Assembly: GCF_013167455.1 (NCBI RefSeq)
Contig: NZ_CP038328.1
Direction: 5' to 3' (one strand)
Source of the DNA: Escherichia coli O157:H7
Lineage (GTDB): Bacteria > Pseudomonadota > Gammaproteobacteria > Enterobacterales > Enterobacteriaceae
DNA length: 64,000 nucleotides
The notes below the pieces were generated by a model. That model saw only the letters and a program-made list of their open reading frames with translations, was not told where the DNA came from and did not search any database. This document shows, piece by piece, positions 13,074 to 36,643 of the stretch (positions within the stretch are counted from its first letter, which is position 1; the number at the start of each line of letters is the position of its first letter). The position numbers and the translations under genes were made by a program.

Positions 13074-13150
<77 letters not shown>

Positions 13151-13183
13151 TCACCGTACTGCTTTTACTTCATCAAATTTGAT

Positions 13184-13260
<77 letters not shown>

Positions 13261-13293
13261 TCACCGTACTGCTTTACTTCATCAAATTTTAAT

Positions 13294-13370
<77 letters not shown>

Positions 13371-14676: not shown

Positions 14677-14763
14677 TGTGATATTCTGTATGCCGTTTTT
14701 ACGGATATGACAGGGTGAGGGGTAACCTCACATCCTGATTATTGACTAAGTGCGCGTTGTTCA

Positions 14764-14861
14764 TGCCGGATGCGGCGTGAACGCCTTATCCGGCCTACAA
14801 ATCATGCAAATCCAAAATATTGCAGGAGTTATGTAGGCCTGATAAGCGTAGCGCATCAGGC
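14764..14861. repeat. Pair of REP elements (BIME-like) in mltA-tcdA spacer
   Basis: GCCGGATGCGGCGTGAACGCCTTATCCGGCCTAC and inverted GTAGGCCTGATAAGCGTAGCGCATCAGGC match REP consensus. Confidence 0.6.
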
Positions 14862-14874
14862 ATTTATGCGTTTA

Positions 14875-17420: not shown

Positions 17421-17611
17421 GGTACTCCTCGGCTTGATGCACCGATCGTGACGCAAAATTCACTTTGATACAAGGAGAGTGCTAACCATCAGAATTATCT
17501 GGATATCCTGGCGAAGCCGCGTCAGTAACATATGCTGAATAGTGTTAGGCGTTAATTTTAGCCTGTTAATCAATACTATTAAGATTTATTAATCGCTTTA
17601 AGGAGAAGATG

Positions 17612-17839
17612 ATGAAAAAGACTGCCGCAATTATTTCTGCCTGTATGCTGACTTTTGCCCTGAGCGCCTGTTCCGGTTCGAACTATGTGATGCACACCAA
17701 TGACGGACGTACCATCGTCTCTGACGGCAAACCACAGACTGATAACGATACCGGTATGATTTCGTATAAAGACGCTAATGGCAACAAACAGCAGATCAAC
17801 CGTACCGACGTGAAAGAGATGGTCGAACTGGATCAGTAA
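17612..17839 (+). CDS. ygdI: Small lipoprotein YgdI (DUF903)
   Basis: 75-aa ORF with lipobox LSACSG; AGGAG 6 nt upstream of the second ATG. Confidence 0.85.
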
Positions 17840-17855
17840 TTCGCGATCGCAAGGT

Positions 17856-18061
17856 AAAAAAAAGCACCGCAATTAGGCGGTGCTACATTAATCACTATGG
17901 ACAGACAGGGTAAATGTACAGGAAGTGAAAAAAGGTAGCTTTGCTACCATGGTCTGAATCGCAGACCAATTGCAAACACAACAACACAACATCACAACCG
18001 TAAGCCAAAAGTTCACCAGAACACGCATTCCGATAAAACTTTTCGTTCCGGCTCAGGAAGT
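17856..18061 (-). ncRNA. gcvB: GcvB small regulatory RNA
   Basis: Reverse complement reads ACTTCCTGAGCCGGAACG...GUUGUGAUGUUGUGUUGUUGUGUUUG (GU-rich seed)...GCACCGCCTAATTGCGGTGCTTTTTTTT terminator; divergent from gcvA. Confidence 0.9.
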
Positions 18062-18189
18062 GCCGCCACTATAGGTATTTGCTGGTAGAAGCTCAACGGA
18101 CAATTTATAATGGCTCAGATTAAAAAAACTAATAGGTTACACAGTGTGATCTAATTGTTAAATTCATTTAACATCAAAGTTTAAAAGCC

Positions 18190-19107
18190 ATGTCTAAACG
18201 ATTACCACCGCTAAATGCCTTACGAGTTTTTGATGCCGCAGCACGCCATTTAAGTTTCACTCGCGCAGCAGAAGAGCTTTTTGTGACCCAGGCCGCAGTA
18301 AGTCATCAAATCAAGTCTCTTGAGGATTTTTTGGGGCTAAAACTGTTCCGCCGCCGTAATCGTTCACTCCTGCTGACCGAGGAAGGGCAAAGCTATTTCC
18401 TCGATATCAAAGAGATATTTTCGCAATTAACCGAAGCGACGCGTAAACTCCAGGCCCGTAGCGCCAAGGGGGCGTTGACGGTCAGTTTACTCCCCAGTTT
18501 CGCCATTCATTGGTTGGTTCCGCGACTTTCCAGCTTTAATTCAGCTTATCCGGGAATTGACGTTCGAATCCAGGCGGTTGATCGTCAGGAAGATAAGCTG
18601 GCGGATGATGTTGATGTGGCGATATTTTATGGTCGGGGCAACTGGCCGGGGCTACGGGTGGAAAAACTGTACGCCGAATATTTATTGCCGGTGTGTTCGC
18701 CGCTACTGCTGACTGGCGAAAAACCCTTGAAGACCCCGGAAGATCTGGCTAAACATACGTTATTACATGATGCGTCACGCCGTGACTGGCAGACATATAC
18801 TCGTCAATTGGGGTTAAATCATATCAACGTTCAGCAAGGGCCAATTTTTAGCCATAGCGCCATGGTGCTGCAAGCGGCTATTCACGGGCAGGGAGTGGCG
18901 CTGGCAAATAACGTGATGGCGCAATCTGAAATTGAAGCCGGACGTCTTGTTTGCCCGTTTAATGATGTTCTGGTCAGTAAAAACGCTTTTTATCTGGTTT
19001 GTCATGACAGCCAGGCAGAACTGGGTAAAATAGCCGCCTTTCGCCAATGGATCCTGGCGAAAGCCGCTGCTGAACAAGAAAAATTCCGCTTTCGTTATGA
19101 ACAATAA
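18190..19107 (+). CDS. gcvA: LysR-type transcriptional regulator of the glycine cleavage system
   Basis: 305-aa ORF; N-terminal HTH LNALRVFDAAARHLSFTRAAEELFVTQAAVSHQIK. Confidence 0.95.
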   Translation: MSKRLPPLNALRVFDAAARHLSFTRAAEELFVTQAAVSHQIKSLEDFLGLKLFRRRNRSLLLTEEGQSYFLDIKEIFSQLTEATRKLQARSAKGALTVSLLPSFAIHWLVPRLSSFNSAYPGIDVRIQAVDRQEDKLADDVDVAIFYGRGNWPGLRVEKLYAEYLLPVCSPLLLTGEKPLKTPEDLAKHTLLHDASRRDWQTYTRQLGLNHINVQQGPIFSHSAMVLQAAIHGQGVALANNVMAQSEIEAGRLVCPFNDVLVSKNAFYLVCHDSQAELGKIAAFRQWILAKAAAEQEKFRFRYEQ

Positions 19108-36231: not shown

Positions 36232-36600
36232 CGTCGACAGGGAGTCAGACAACGAAGTGAACATCAGGATGATGACACTTCTGAAGGACACACCAGGATG
36301 GTGTTTCAGGGAAAGGCTTCTGGATGAAGCGAAGAGGATGACGCAGGACGCGTTAAAGGACACCTCCAGGATGGAGAATGAGAACCGGTCAGGATGATTC
36401 GGTGGGTCAGGAAGGCCTGGGACACTTCAGGATGAAGTATCACATCGGGGTGGTGTGAGCAGGAAGCAATAGTTCAGGATGAACGATTGGCCGCATGGCC
36501 AGAGGAAAAGTTGTCAAGGATGAGCAGGGAGCAACAAAAGTAGCTGGAATGCTGCGAAACGAACCGGGAGCACTGTGAATACAGTGCTCCCTTTTTTTAT
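36232..36600 (+). ncRNA. csrB: CsrB regulatory RNA (CsrA-sequestering)
   Basis: About 370 nt with roughly 20 AGGA/GGA motifs, mostly as CAGGATG; ends in GGAGCACTGTGAATACAGTGCTCC hairpin plus TTTTTTT; located between syd and yqcC; 5' end approximate. Confidence 0.9.
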
Positions 36601-36643
36601 TCCTGCTATCCTTCGCGGCAGTTTTTCTTATTGAGGTTGCTTT

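What the first reader, a model, noticed from the sequence alone, without database searches (positions are those of the whole stretch)
17856..18061. GcvB sRNA divergent from gcvA
The minus strand carries the full GcvB sequence including the GU-rich seed and Rho-independent terminator. It is invisible to ORF-based annotation; the ORF track shows nothing here.
Basis: partly seen in the sequence, partly recalled or inferred. Interest (0 to 1): 0.3.

Follow-up and report, generated by a model that had tools for sequence, protein, structure and literature searches.

The report
Known GcvB small RNA gene

Summary
Confirmed and already known. Rfam's GcvB model (RF00022) hits window 18061→17856 on the minus strand. 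The match is full length (model 1-204/204), 199 bits against a gathering score of 42, E = 1.1e-46. The 206 nt are identical to the curated E. coli K-12 gcvB gene (b4443). They occur in 5425 of 5426 complete E. coli genomes.

All expected parts are present:
- a promoter-like site (-35 TTGAGC, -10 TATAGT) ending 6 nt before the 5' end;
- five stem-loops;
- a tract with 26 of 27 G/U (R1 seed), unique in the 64-kb window;
- the invariant R2/R3 block;
- an internal terminator (t1) and a final rho-independent terminator (t2).

gcvA (NF008352, 512.8 bits) starts 128 nt away on the other strand.

Across other genera, 100 of 103 loci with enough upstream DNA keep a divergent gcvA. The three without it are probably chance matches. 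The stems show compensatory changes in a 37-sequence alignment. The 46-codon ORF inside the RNA is not conserved.

The mechanism comes from published work on this identical sequence. GcvA activates transcription in response to glycine. The RNA, with Hfq, pairs with C/A-rich sites in amino-acid and peptide transporter mRNAs and represses them.

Interest is low. The only practical point is that the PGAP-annotated RefSeq E. coli records listed show no feature here.

The parts
17856..18061 (-). gcvB, the full-length 206-nt GcvB sRNA (5' end at 18061, 3' end at 17856)
   Evidence: Rfam RF00022 at 199 bits, E 1.1e-46, model 1-204/204. 206/206 identical to K-12 b4443. Predicted fold -62.1 kcal/mol, z = -3.63 against shuffles.
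18091..18096 (-). gcvB promoter -35-like hexamer TTGAGC
   Evidence: Consensus scan: TTGAGC, 17-nt spacer, TATAGT, 9 of 12 matches. The TTGA core is kept in nearly all of 22 aligned sequences.
18068..18073 (-). gcvB promoter -10-like hexamer TATAGT, ending 6 nt before the RNA 5' end
   Evidence: The hexamer is kept in 21 of 22 aligned sequences.
18097..18133 (.). Conserved upstream block (about -36 to -72 relative to gcvB +1), ATTAGTTTTTTTAATCTGAGCCATTATAAATTGTCCG. It is the likely shared GcvA-binding region of the divergent gcvB and gcvA promoters. It contains one CTAAT motif (18129-18133, +) and a TATAAT on the gcvA strand (18106-18111, +).
   Evidence: The block is strongly conserved from Escherichia to Plesiomonas, while sequence further upstream is not. 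CTAAT positions are and TATAAT. Its identity as the GcvA site is inferred from PMC1557403 (Fig. 1 legend: a GcvA binding region lies between the two promoters) and from my recollection of Wilson et al. 1995 and Urbanowski et al. 2000. It was not tested here.
18003..18053 (-). Stem-loop 1 (GcvB nt 9-59)
   Evidence: Rfam consensus structure mapped on the sequence. All 20 pairs form here. Helices 2 and 3 of the count have 10 pairs with changes on both sides across genera.
17969..18002 (-). Linker holding the G/U-rich R1 seed (GcvB nt 60-93). It is unpaired in the Rfam consensus. The core tract at 17973-17999 has 26 of 27 G/U.
   Evidence: Unpaired in the Rfam consensus and largely open in the centroid fold. 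Unique in the window. UUGUGUUUGC is invariant, but that stretch was part of the search pattern. Predicted duplex with the K-12 dppA leader is -29.9 kcal/mol, reached by 1 of 500 shuffles.
17950..17968 (-). Stem-loop 2 (GcvB nt 94-112)
   Evidence: Only 64% of cells pair in the MAFFT alignment. I attribute this to a one-column register shift in the Yersinia/Serratia group (my reading of the alignment; counts).
17928..17948 (-). Stem-loop 3 plus U6, the internal terminator t1 (GcvB nt 114-134), which can yield the ~130-nt short form
   Evidence: Terminator-like site GGTAGCAAAGCTACC + TTTTTT. 3 of 6 pairs show changes on both sides and 90% of cells pair. Two terminators and RNAs of ~130 and ~206 nt are described in PMC1557403.
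17918..17927 (-). R2 conserved sequence CACUUCCUGU (GcvB nt 135-144)
   Evidence: Invariant in all 37 aligned sequences. This stretch was part of the search pattern, so the invariance is by construction there. The flanking invariant bases are independent of the pattern. R2 as a seed: PMC9299463.
17885..17917 (-). Stem-loop 4 (GcvB nt 145-177). Its large conserved loop carries the R3 seed (about nt 150-165, window 17897-17912).
   Evidence: Rfam structure. The loop ACCCUGUCUGUCCAUAGUGA is nearly invariant and was not part of the search pattern. R3 mutations at G156, G160 and C162 are described in PMC9299463.
17856..17884 (-). Stem-loop 5 plus U-tail, the rho-independent terminator t2 (GcvB nt 178-206). 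By general knowledge of Hfq-dependent sRNAs it is also the likely Hfq-binding 3' end.
   Evidence: 8-bp stem with 6 G-C pairs, then TTTTTTT. 97% of cells pair across genera. Hfq binding is inferred, not tested.
18190..19107 (+). gcvA, a LysR-type regulator divergently transcribed from gcvB; it activates gcvB
   Evidence: 305-aa ORF. NF008352 GcvA at 512.8 bits against a cut-off of 288, covering 1-304 of 305. Annotated gcvA in K-12 and O157:H7 records.

Best explanation
Window 17856-18061 (minus strand) is gcvB, the gene for the Hfq-dependent trans-acting small RNA GcvB. The host is an E. coli whose gcvA-gcvB locus is identical to O157:H7 strains.

Shown here:
- A sigma-70-type promoter-like site ends 6 nt upstream of the RNA 5' end at 18061.
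- The 72 bp upstream of the 5' end are strongly conserved across Enterobacterales.
- The gene for the LysR-type regulator GcvA starts 128 nt away on the other strand. This divergent pairing is kept in every genuine GcvB locus examined.
- The RNA has five stem-loops supported by compensatory changes.
- Transcription can end at an internal terminator (t1, ~130 nt) or at the final terminator (t2, 206 nt).

Taken from published experiments on this same sequence:
- GcvA activates gcvB when glycine is abundant. The GcvA-GcvR complex represses it when glycine is scarce.
- GcvB uses its G/U-rich R1 seed, and to a lesser extent R2 and R3, to pair with C/A-rich sites at or upstream of ribosome-binding sites. 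Its many targets are mRNAs for amino-acid and peptide uptake and biosynthesis, such as dppA, oppA, gltI, cycA and sstT.
- Pairing blocks translation initiation and often promotes mRNA decay.
- GcvB is itself removed by the SroC sponge RNA through RNase E.

The net effect is to lower amino-acid and peptide import and synthesis when nutrients are rich.
For: Family and identity:
- Full-length Rfam GcvB hit, 199 bits against a gathering score of 42.
- 100% identity over 206 nt to curated K-12 gcvB b4443.
- Present in 5425 of 5426 complete E. coli genomes, at 99% identity or more in 5389.

Anatomy:
- Promoter-like site and two terminator-like hairpins in the expected places.
- gcvA neighbour at 512.8 bits to NF008352.
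- G/U tract unique in the window.

Comparative evidence:
- 100 of 103 related loci with 400 nt or more of upstream DNA carry a divergent gcvA homologue starting 110-369 nt from the pattern match. This includes Pasteurellaceae, where GcvA is only ~47% identical. The three exceptions are matches that aligned at no more than 40% identity to the window's GcvB.
- Rfam calls GcvB in 16 of 16 Enterobacterales and Pasteurellaceae loci tested, and in neither of two chance-match controls.
- In the 37-sequence alignment, 84% of cells are paired, against 34-51% when the partners are slid. 17 pairs have changes on both sides. 0 of 500 shuffles reach the covariation score.
- The promoter and upstream block are conserved.

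Pairing:
- R1 is predicted to pair with the K-12 dppA leader at -44..-10 with -29.9 kcal/mol, reached by 1 of 500 shuffles.

Literature:
- GcvA/GcvR/glycine control, two terminators, the 206-nt form required for dppA/oppA repression, and the RNA not being translated: PMC1557403.
- R1/R2/R3 seeds, Hfq, SroC/RNase E, and divergent transcription from gcvA: PMC9299463.
- C/A-rich target sites and inhibition of translation initiation: PMC4474525.
Against: Nothing found argues against it. The limits are these:
- No expression data exist for this window. Transcription, the 5' and 3' ends, Hfq binding and target repression are inferred from sequence identity with the experimentally studied K-12 gene.
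- The predicted R1-oppA duplex (-23.1 kcal/mol) was matched by 73 of 500 composition-preserving shuffles. That computation alone does not support pairing.
- Stem-loops 2 and 4 pair in only 64-78% of cells in the sequence-based alignment. For stem-loop 2, I attribute this to a register shift.
- The comparative loci were recruited with a pattern containing part of R1 and R2. Conservation of those 21 bases is therefore by construction.
Confidence: 0.98

Rival explanations
1. The locus is, or is also, a small protein gene. The 46-codon ORF at 18028→17888 (minus strand; MRVLVNFWLTVVMLCCCVCNWSAIQTMVAKLPFFTSCTFTLSVHSD) would be translated, making GcvB a dual-function RNA.
For: The ORF exists. It stays open with the same start in several close Enterobacteriaceae genera, including E. 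albertii, Citrobacter, Pseudocitrobacter, Kluyvera and Pluralibacter.
Against: - Its AUG (GcvB nt 34-36) lies inside stem-loop 1.
- There is no spaced Shine-Dalgarno sequence. The sequence reads UAUCGGAAUG.
- Outside the closest genera the start codon is absent. This holds for Kosakonia, Yersinia, Serratia, Hafnia, Proteus, Photorhabdus, Edwardsiella and Plesiomonas.
- Elsewhere the ORF is cut short (Enterobacter Ag1, the L055 MAG, Rahnella), or the frame changes so that the C-terminal half switches between ...FFTSCTFTLSVHSD and ...FHFLYIYPVCP or has no stop in the RNA.
- The retained stretch coincides with the RNA-level conserved R1, R2 and R3 blocks. That alone explains why the ORF persists in close relatives.
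Confidence: 0.02
2. There is no independent RNA gene. The region would only be the gcvA upstream regulatory DNA plus a terminator for the convergent ygdI gene, and the Rfam hit would reflect conserved DNA-level signals.
For: - The t2 hairpin lies 24 nt after the ygdI stop codon (17839), and the two genes converge.
- No separate plus-strand terminator-like site for ygdI was found.
Against: - The compensatory base-pair changes in stem-loops 1 and 3 are RNA-level constraints.
- A promoter-like site is correctly placed for the minus strand, and both T-runs follow their hairpins on the minus strand only.
- Northern blots and lacZ fusions show gcvB transcripts in E. coli and Yersinia (PMC1557403).
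Confidence: 0.005
3. It is a decayed or silenced copy: GcvB-like sequence that is no longer expressed or functional in this strain.
For: Two base differences from K-12 lie in the gcvA-gcvB intergenic region, at window 18142 and 18185.
Against: - The RNA is 206/206 identical to the functional K-12 gene.
- Both differences lie outside the conserved -72..+1 block, in sequence that varies freely between genera.
- The whole 1.8-kb locus is 100% identical to many O157:H7 genomes.
- gcvA is intact and full length.
Confidence: 0.005

Closest known systems
E. coli K-12 GcvB (gcvB, b4443; Urbanowski et al. 2000, as cited in PMC9299463 and PMC1557403)
   Same: - Identical 206-nt sequence.
- Same neighbours in the same order: csdA, ygdI, gcvB, gcvA, ygdD, rlmM.
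- Same 128-nt spacing to gcvA.
   Different: Only two single-base differences in the gcvA-gcvB intergenic region, at window 18142 and 18185. Both lie outside the conserved promoter/operator block. The flanking 9 kb is 98.5% identical.
Salmonella enterica GcvB (Sharma et al. 2007, 2011, as cited in PMC9299463 and PMC4474525)
   Same: Same family. Same R1/R2/R3 seeds, Hfq dependence, target classes and SroC sponge (PMC9299463; PMC4474525).
   Different: Reported to differ from E. coli GcvB by 10 nt (PMC9299463). Salmonella was not aligned here.
Yersinia pestis GcvB (PMC1557403)
   Same: Divergent from gcvA. Activated by GcvA and repressed by GcvR. Two terminators giving ~130-nt and ~206-nt RNAs. 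Represses dppA.
   Different: - About 77% identical to the E. coli RNA (PMC1557403). The Yersinia species aligned here were 77-79% identical.
- The linker before R1 is 7 nt shorter in the alignment here.
- Its t1 terminator has 2 extra bases before the T-run and is weaker (PMC1557403).
Pasteurellaceae GcvB (e.g. Pasteurella multocida, PMC5900567)
   Same: Rfam GcvB hits of 85-104 bits in Haemophilus, Otariodibacter and Pasteurella loci. All have a divergent gcvA homologue.
   Different: Only about 42-51% identical to the window's RNA, and shorter at 174-203 nt. Their GcvA is only ~47-54% identical.

Membership tests
GcvB RNA (Rfam RF00022) | Scores above the family's curated gathering threshold over the full model | tested here: met
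   199.0 bits against 42, E 1.1e-46, model 1-204/204, not truncated.
GcvB RNA (Rfam RF00022) | Transcribed divergently from the adjacent gcvA gene | tested here: met
   gcvA (NF008352, 512.8 bits) lies at 18190-19107 (+), 128 nt from the GcvB 5' end. The same arrangement is found in 100 of 103 related loci with enough upstream DNA.
GcvB RNA (Rfam RF00022) | G/U-rich R1 seed between stem-loops 1 and 2, unpaired in the consensus structure | tested here: met
   26 of 27 G/U at nt 63-89, unique in the window. Unpaired in the Rfam consensus and largely open in the centroid fold. The minimum-energy fold adds a weak 5-bp hairpin there.
GcvB RNA (Rfam RF00022) | Conserved R2 (CACUUCCUGU) and R3 (stem-loop 4 loop) sequences | tested here: met
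   Both are present. The R3 loop and the bases flanking R2 are invariant or nearly so in 37 sequences from different genera and were not part of the search pattern.
GcvB RNA (Rfam RF00022) | Conserved secondary structure (stem-loops 1-5) supported by covariation | tested here: met
   46 of the 47 consensus pairs are standard pairs in this sequence; the exception is C101-U105 at the top of stem-loop 2. Across genera, 84% of cells pair, 17 pairs change on both sides, and 0 of 500 shuffles reach the covariation score. Slid controls give 34-51%. Stem-loops 2 and 4 are weaker at 64-78%.
GcvB RNA (Rfam RF00022) | Rho-independent terminator with a U-tail, plus the internal terminator t1 | tested here: met
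   Both terminator-like sites were found on the minus strand. They correspond to the two terminators described in PMC1557403.
GcvB RNA (Rfam RF00022) | Non-coding: no conserved ORF | tested here: met
   The 46-codon ORF loses its start codon, is cut short or changes frame in more than half of the 37 aligned sequences. PMC1557403 reports that the E. coli RNAs are not translated.
GcvB regulatory system | Transcription activated by GcvA with glycine and repressed by GcvA-GcvR | not testable with these tools
   Only indirect support. The -72..+1 block, including a CTAAT motif, is conserved across Enterobacterales, and it is identical to K-12 across this block. The experiments are in PMC1557403 and the papers it cites.
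GcvB regulatory system | R1 pairs with C/A-rich sites near the ribosome-binding sites of dppA and oppA | tested here: inconclusive
   dppA leader: -29.9 kcal/mol at -44..-10, reached by 1 of 500 shuffles. oppA: -23.1 kcal/mol at -10..+14, reached by 73 of 500 shuffles. The energies are consistent with pairing, but only dppA stands out from composition alone. The published experiments were done on this same RNA sequence.
GcvB regulatory system | Hfq binding, and decay through the SroC sponge and RNase E | not testable with these tools
   Known from PMC9299463 and PMC4474525. Here only the terminator hairpin and U-tail are visible.

The most novel reading that the evidence does not exclude
The 46-codon ORF inside GcvB (18028→17888, minus strand) stays open in Escherichia, Citrobacter, Kluyvera and a few other close genera. 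It might be translated at a low level into a small hydrophobic, cysteine-rich peptide. That would make GcvB a dual-function RNA in that clade.

The evidence here does not strictly exclude this, but it points the other way:
- the start codon is buried in stem-loop 1;
- there is no Shine-Dalgarno sequence;
- the reading frame switches between genera;
- the literature states that the RNA is untranslated.
Probability: 0.02. Interest if true: 0.5.

Novelty: already known. Interest (0 to 1): 0.04.

Why it matters
It matters little as a discovery. GcvB has been studied since 2000 and is one of the best-characterised global sRNAs. [quoted passage not shown]

The practical points are about annotation. 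The gene is correctly placed at 17856-18061 (-). It should be annotated as gcvB. The 46-codon and 97-codon ORFs overlapping it should not be called as genes. In addition, the PGAP-annotated RefSeq E. coli records listed show no feature at this position. A covariance-model scan is therefore needed to see it.

One piece of context may be relevant. The locus is identical to O157:H7 strains. PMC4474525, which cites Tree et al. [quoted passage not shown] Whether AgvB occurs in this strain was not examined.

Tried and rejected
1. Small-protein reading. I checked the 46-codon ORF in 37 aligned sequences. It is not conserved, so I rejected this reading.

2. Chance matches of the search pattern. Borreliella (L058), Paenibacillus (L061), Flavobacteriales (L079) and L102 matched the 21-base gapped pattern. 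They aligned at no more than 40% identity to the window's GcvB and none has a gcvA hit. L085 was not aligned because the match lies at the locus end; it also has no gcvA hit. The two that were scanned, L058 and L061, gave no Rfam GcvB hit. I set all five aside as probable chance matches.

3. CTAAT as evidence for GcvA binding. The pentamer occurs 58 times in the window against about 99 expected by chance. Its mere presence means nothing. Only its position in the conserved block carries weight.

4. R1-oppA duplex energy. It is not distinguishable from composition-matched shuffles, so I did not use it as support.

5. The t2 hairpin as a bidirectional terminator for ygdI. No T-run follows it on the plus strand and the scan reports no plus-strand site. 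I left this open.

6. Failed calls that carry no information:
- three paper look-ups with disallowed search terms;
- one Rfam scan over the size limit;
- one script that looked for a file that did not exist.

Full report
**1. Observation**

The finding claims that window 17856-18061, on the minus strand, carries the full GcvB small RNA, divergent from gcvA.

- A scan of the whole window against all 4227 Rfam 15 families reports RF00022 (GcvB) at 18061→17856 on the minus strand. The hit scores 199.0 bits against a gathering score of 42, with E = 1.1e-46. It covers model positions 1-204 of 204 and is not truncated.
- The sequence read directly shows the G/U-rich tract and the terminal hairpin followed by eight T.
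- The tract GGUUGUGAUGUUGUGUUGUUGUGUUUG (GcvB nt 63-89, window 17973-17999) has 26 of 27 G/U. It is the only 27-mer of that composition on either strand of the 64-kb window.
- As a single RNA strand the region folds to -62.1 kcal/mol. Shuffles average -47.1 ± 4.1 (z = -3.6), and none of 200 shuffles folds as well.

**2. Identity**

- The 206 nt are 206/206 identical to the curated ncRNA gcvB (b4443, 'small regulatory RNA GcvB') of E. coli K-12 MG1655, NC_000913.3 2942696-2942901.
- The surrounding 9 kb aligns colinearly, in reverse orientation, to K-12 at 98.5% identity. The gene order is fucR, rlmM, ygdD, gcvA, gcvB, ygdI, csdA, csdE, tcdA, mltA.
- The sequence is found in 5425 of 5426 complete E. 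coli genomes, at 99% identity or more in 5389.
- A 1.8-kb piece spanning ygdI, gcvB and gcvA is 100% identical to several O157:H7 genomes. The window therefore comes from E. coli, probably the O157:H7 lineage or a close relative.
- The PGAP-annotated RefSeq records listed show no feature under the GcvB match. They show only gcvA, ygdI, ygdD and csdA for the larger piece. The curated K-12 record does annotate it.
- The statement that 'the ORF track shows nothing' is not quite exact. A mechanical ORF list has a 46-codon ORF inside the RNA (17888-18028, -) and a 97-codon ORF overlapping its 3' end (17579-17872, -).

**3. Anatomy**

GcvB nucleotide n corresponds to window position 18062 - n. I mapped the Rfam consensus structure onto the sequence.

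| Element | GcvB nt | Window |
|---|---|---|
| Stem-loop 1 | 9-59 | 18003-18053 |
| Linker with R1 (unpaired in the consensus) | 60-93 | 17969-18002 |
| Stem-loop 2 | 94-112 | 17950-17968 |
| Stem-loop 3 plus U6 (internal terminator t1) | 114-134 | 17928-17948 |
| R2, CACUUCCUGU | 135-144 | 17918-17927 |
| Stem-loop 4, with the R3 loop | 145-177 | 17885-17917 |
| Terminator hairpin plus U-tail (t2) | 178-206 | 17856-17884 |

- The consensus scan found both terminator-like sites on the minus strand. It also found one promoter-like site, TTGAGC, 17 nt, TATAGT (18096..18068, -). Its -10 hexamer ends 6 nt before the RNA 5' end.
- gcvA is the 305-codon ORF at 18190-19107 (+). It matches NF008352 'transcriptional regulator GcvA' at 512.8 bits against a cut-off of 288, over its full length. 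The two genes are divergent, with 128 nt between the GcvB 5' end and the gcvA ATG.
- On the other side, the lipoprotein gene ygdI (17609-17839, +; NF033216, 113 bits) converges on gcvB. The gap between them is 16 nt.

**4. Related sequences**

I scanned one genome per species (100,044 species) for the gapped pattern TTGTGTTTGCA-N30-60-CACTTCCTGT.

- *Synteny.* Of 103 loci with at least 400 nt of DNA upstream of the match, 100 encode a gcvA homologue on the opposite strand, starting 110-369 nt from the match. These include Pasteurellaceae, where GcvA is only 47-54% identical. The three exceptions are Paenibacillus (L061), a Flavobacteriales MAG (L079) and L102. They aligned at no more than 40% identity to the window's GcvB and are probably chance matches.
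- *Family membership.* Rfam independently calls GcvB, at 85-198 bits and full model length, in all 16 Enterobacterales and Pasteurellaceae loci I submitted. It calls it in neither of two chance-match controls, Borreliella and Paenibacillus.
- *Conservation.* In a MAFFT alignment of 37 sequences, mostly one per genus, from Escherichia to Plesiomonas (A1), the R1 core, R2, the R3 loop and the terminator are invariant or nearly so. Stem-loops 1-3 vary.
- *Covariation.* I counted the Rfam structure on this alignment. 84% of cells form standard pairs, against 34-51% when partners are slid by 1-3 columns. 17 of 47 pairs show changes on both sides. 0 of 500 column shuffles reach the observed covariation score. 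Support is strongest for stem-loop 1 (10 pairs with double changes), stem-loop 3 and the terminator. Stem-loops 2 and 4 pair in only 64-78% of cells. For stem-loop 2, I attribute this to a one-column register shift in the Yersinia/Serratia group of this sequence-based alignment.
- *Caveat.* The 21 bases of the search pattern are conserved by construction.
- *Upstream region.* I aligned the 100 nt upstream of the 5' end in 22 sequences (the window, K-12 and 20 other genera). A block from about -72 to +1 is strongly conserved: ATTAGTTTTTTTAATCTGAGCCATTATAAATTGTCCGTTGAG...CCAGCAAATACCTATAGTGGCGGC. The DNA beyond it is not.
- This block holds the -35 and -10 hexamers of gcvB. On the other strand it holds a perfect TATAAT (18106-18111, +) and a CTAAT (18129-18133, +).
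- The legend of Fig. 1 of PMC1557403 places the gcvA and gcvB promoters and a GcvA-binding region in this intergenic stretch. I recall that CTAAT is the proposed GcvA recognition motif and that the gcvA start site lies 72 nt before its ATG (Wilson et al. 1994/1995). These are recollections, not tests. The pentamer alone is uninformative: it occurs 58 times in the window against about 99 expected by chance.
- The two differences from K-12 in the intergenic region (18142 and 18185) lie outside the conserved block.

**5. Mechanism**

*Shown here.* The gene, its promoter-like and terminator-like signals, its structure with covariation, the seeds, and the conserved pairing with gcvA.

*Taken from experiments on the identical K-12 sequence and close relatives.*

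- GcvA activates gcvB when glycine is abundant. GcvR, in complex with GcvA, represses it.
- Two terminators give RNAs of ~130 and ~206 nt. In E. coli about 90% of transcripts stop at t1, yet the 206-nt form is needed to repress oppA and dppA. The RNAs are not translated (PMC1557403).
- GcvB acts with Hfq and uses seeds R1, R2 and R3. R1 serves most targets.
- GcvB is degraded by RNase E after pairing with the SroC sponge at stem-loops 1 and 4 (PMC9299463).
- Targets carry C/A-rich sites, and binding blocks translation initiation (PMC4474525).

*A direct computational check.* I used K-12 leaders fetched here. R1 is predicted to pair with dppA at -44..-10 with -29.9 kcal/mol, which 1 of 500 shuffled targets reach. 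It pairs with oppA at -10..+14 with -23.1 kcal/mol, which 73 of 500 reach. The dppA result supports pairing. The oppA result is not distinguishable from base composition.

**6. Rivals**

- *Small protein or dual-function RNA.* The 46-codon ORF stays open in several close genera. However, its AUG is inside stem-loop 1 and has no spaced Shine-Dalgarno sequence. The start codon is missing in Kosakonia and in the aligned genera outside the Enterobacteriaceae, apart from Rahnella. Elsewhere the ORF is cut short, or the frame changes so that the C-terminal half differs or runs off the RNA. The retained part coincides with the RNA-level conserved blocks. I put this at about 2%.
- *Merely regulatory DNA or a ygdI terminator.* The RNA-level compensatory changes and the strand-specific T-runs contradict this.
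- *A decayed copy.* The complete identity with the functional K-12 gene and promoter block contradicts this.

**7. Comparison and novelty**

This is not a relative of GcvB. It is GcvB itself. Every sequence-level defining feature I could test was met. GcvA/GcvR/glycine control and Hfq/SroC dependence cannot be tested with these tools, and the seed-target duplex check was clear for dppA only. All of these are documented for this exact sequence.

Verdict: already known. Interest is very low (0.04). Confidence in the identification is 0.98.

Noticed in passing
window 36242-36601 (+): Full-length CsrB sRNA. Rfam RF00018, 382.6 bits against a gathering score of 71, model 1-356/356, with the usual array of GGA hairpins and a terminator. 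An Edwardsiella locus also has CsrB about 7 kb from GcvB (L031).
   Followed up: no
window 13074-13370 (-): Three tandem tRNA-Met (CAT) genes at a 110-nt period with identical Rfam scores. By position relative to mltA and tcdA they look like the metZ-metW-metV initiator tRNA cluster. That name is from memory and was not checked.
   Followed up: partly
window 14798-14840 (+), within 14743-14873; second copy at 42763-42891: The Rfam hit to ES036 (CssrF), 46.5 bits against 37.6, lies inside a ~130-bp palindromic intergenic repeat. The repeat carries REP-like units (GCCGGATGCGGCG..., GCCTGATGCGCTACGCTTATCAGGCCTACA). A second copy, 82.6% identical, sits elsewhere in the window. The hit is probably to a repeat element rather than to a specific sRNA gene.
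   Followed up: partly
window 17856-18061 compared with RefSeq E. coli records: The PGAP-annotated RefSeq E. coli records listed show no feature under the GcvB match. The curated K-12 record annotates it as b4443.
   Followed up: yes
window 18142 and 18185: Two single-base differences from K-12 in the gcvA-gcvB intergenic region. Position 18142 lies between the two CTAAT motifs, and 18185 lies just before the gcvA ATG. Both are outside the block conserved across genera.
   Followed up: partly
E. coli genome collection (not the window): - One record, NZ_AP042483.1, has GcvB matched over only 61% of its length, in two places. This suggests an interruption.
- One genome of 5426 has no match.
- One copy lies on a plasmid.
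- Two records match at only 80-90% identity.
   Followed up: no
window 17839-17884: ygdI (+) ends 16 nt before the GcvB 3' end. The scan reports no plus-strand terminator-like site after ygdI. The GcvB t2 hairpin might also stop ygdI transcription, although no T-run follows it on the plus strand.
   Followed up: partly
loci L058, L061, L079, L085, L102: The 21-base gapped GcvB pattern also matched a few unrelated genomes: Borreliella, Paenibacillus, a Flavobacteriales MAG and two others. The four that were aligned are at most 40% identical to the window's GcvB. None has a gcvA hit. The two that were scanned gave no Rfam GcvB hit. They are probably chance matches.
   Followed up: yes
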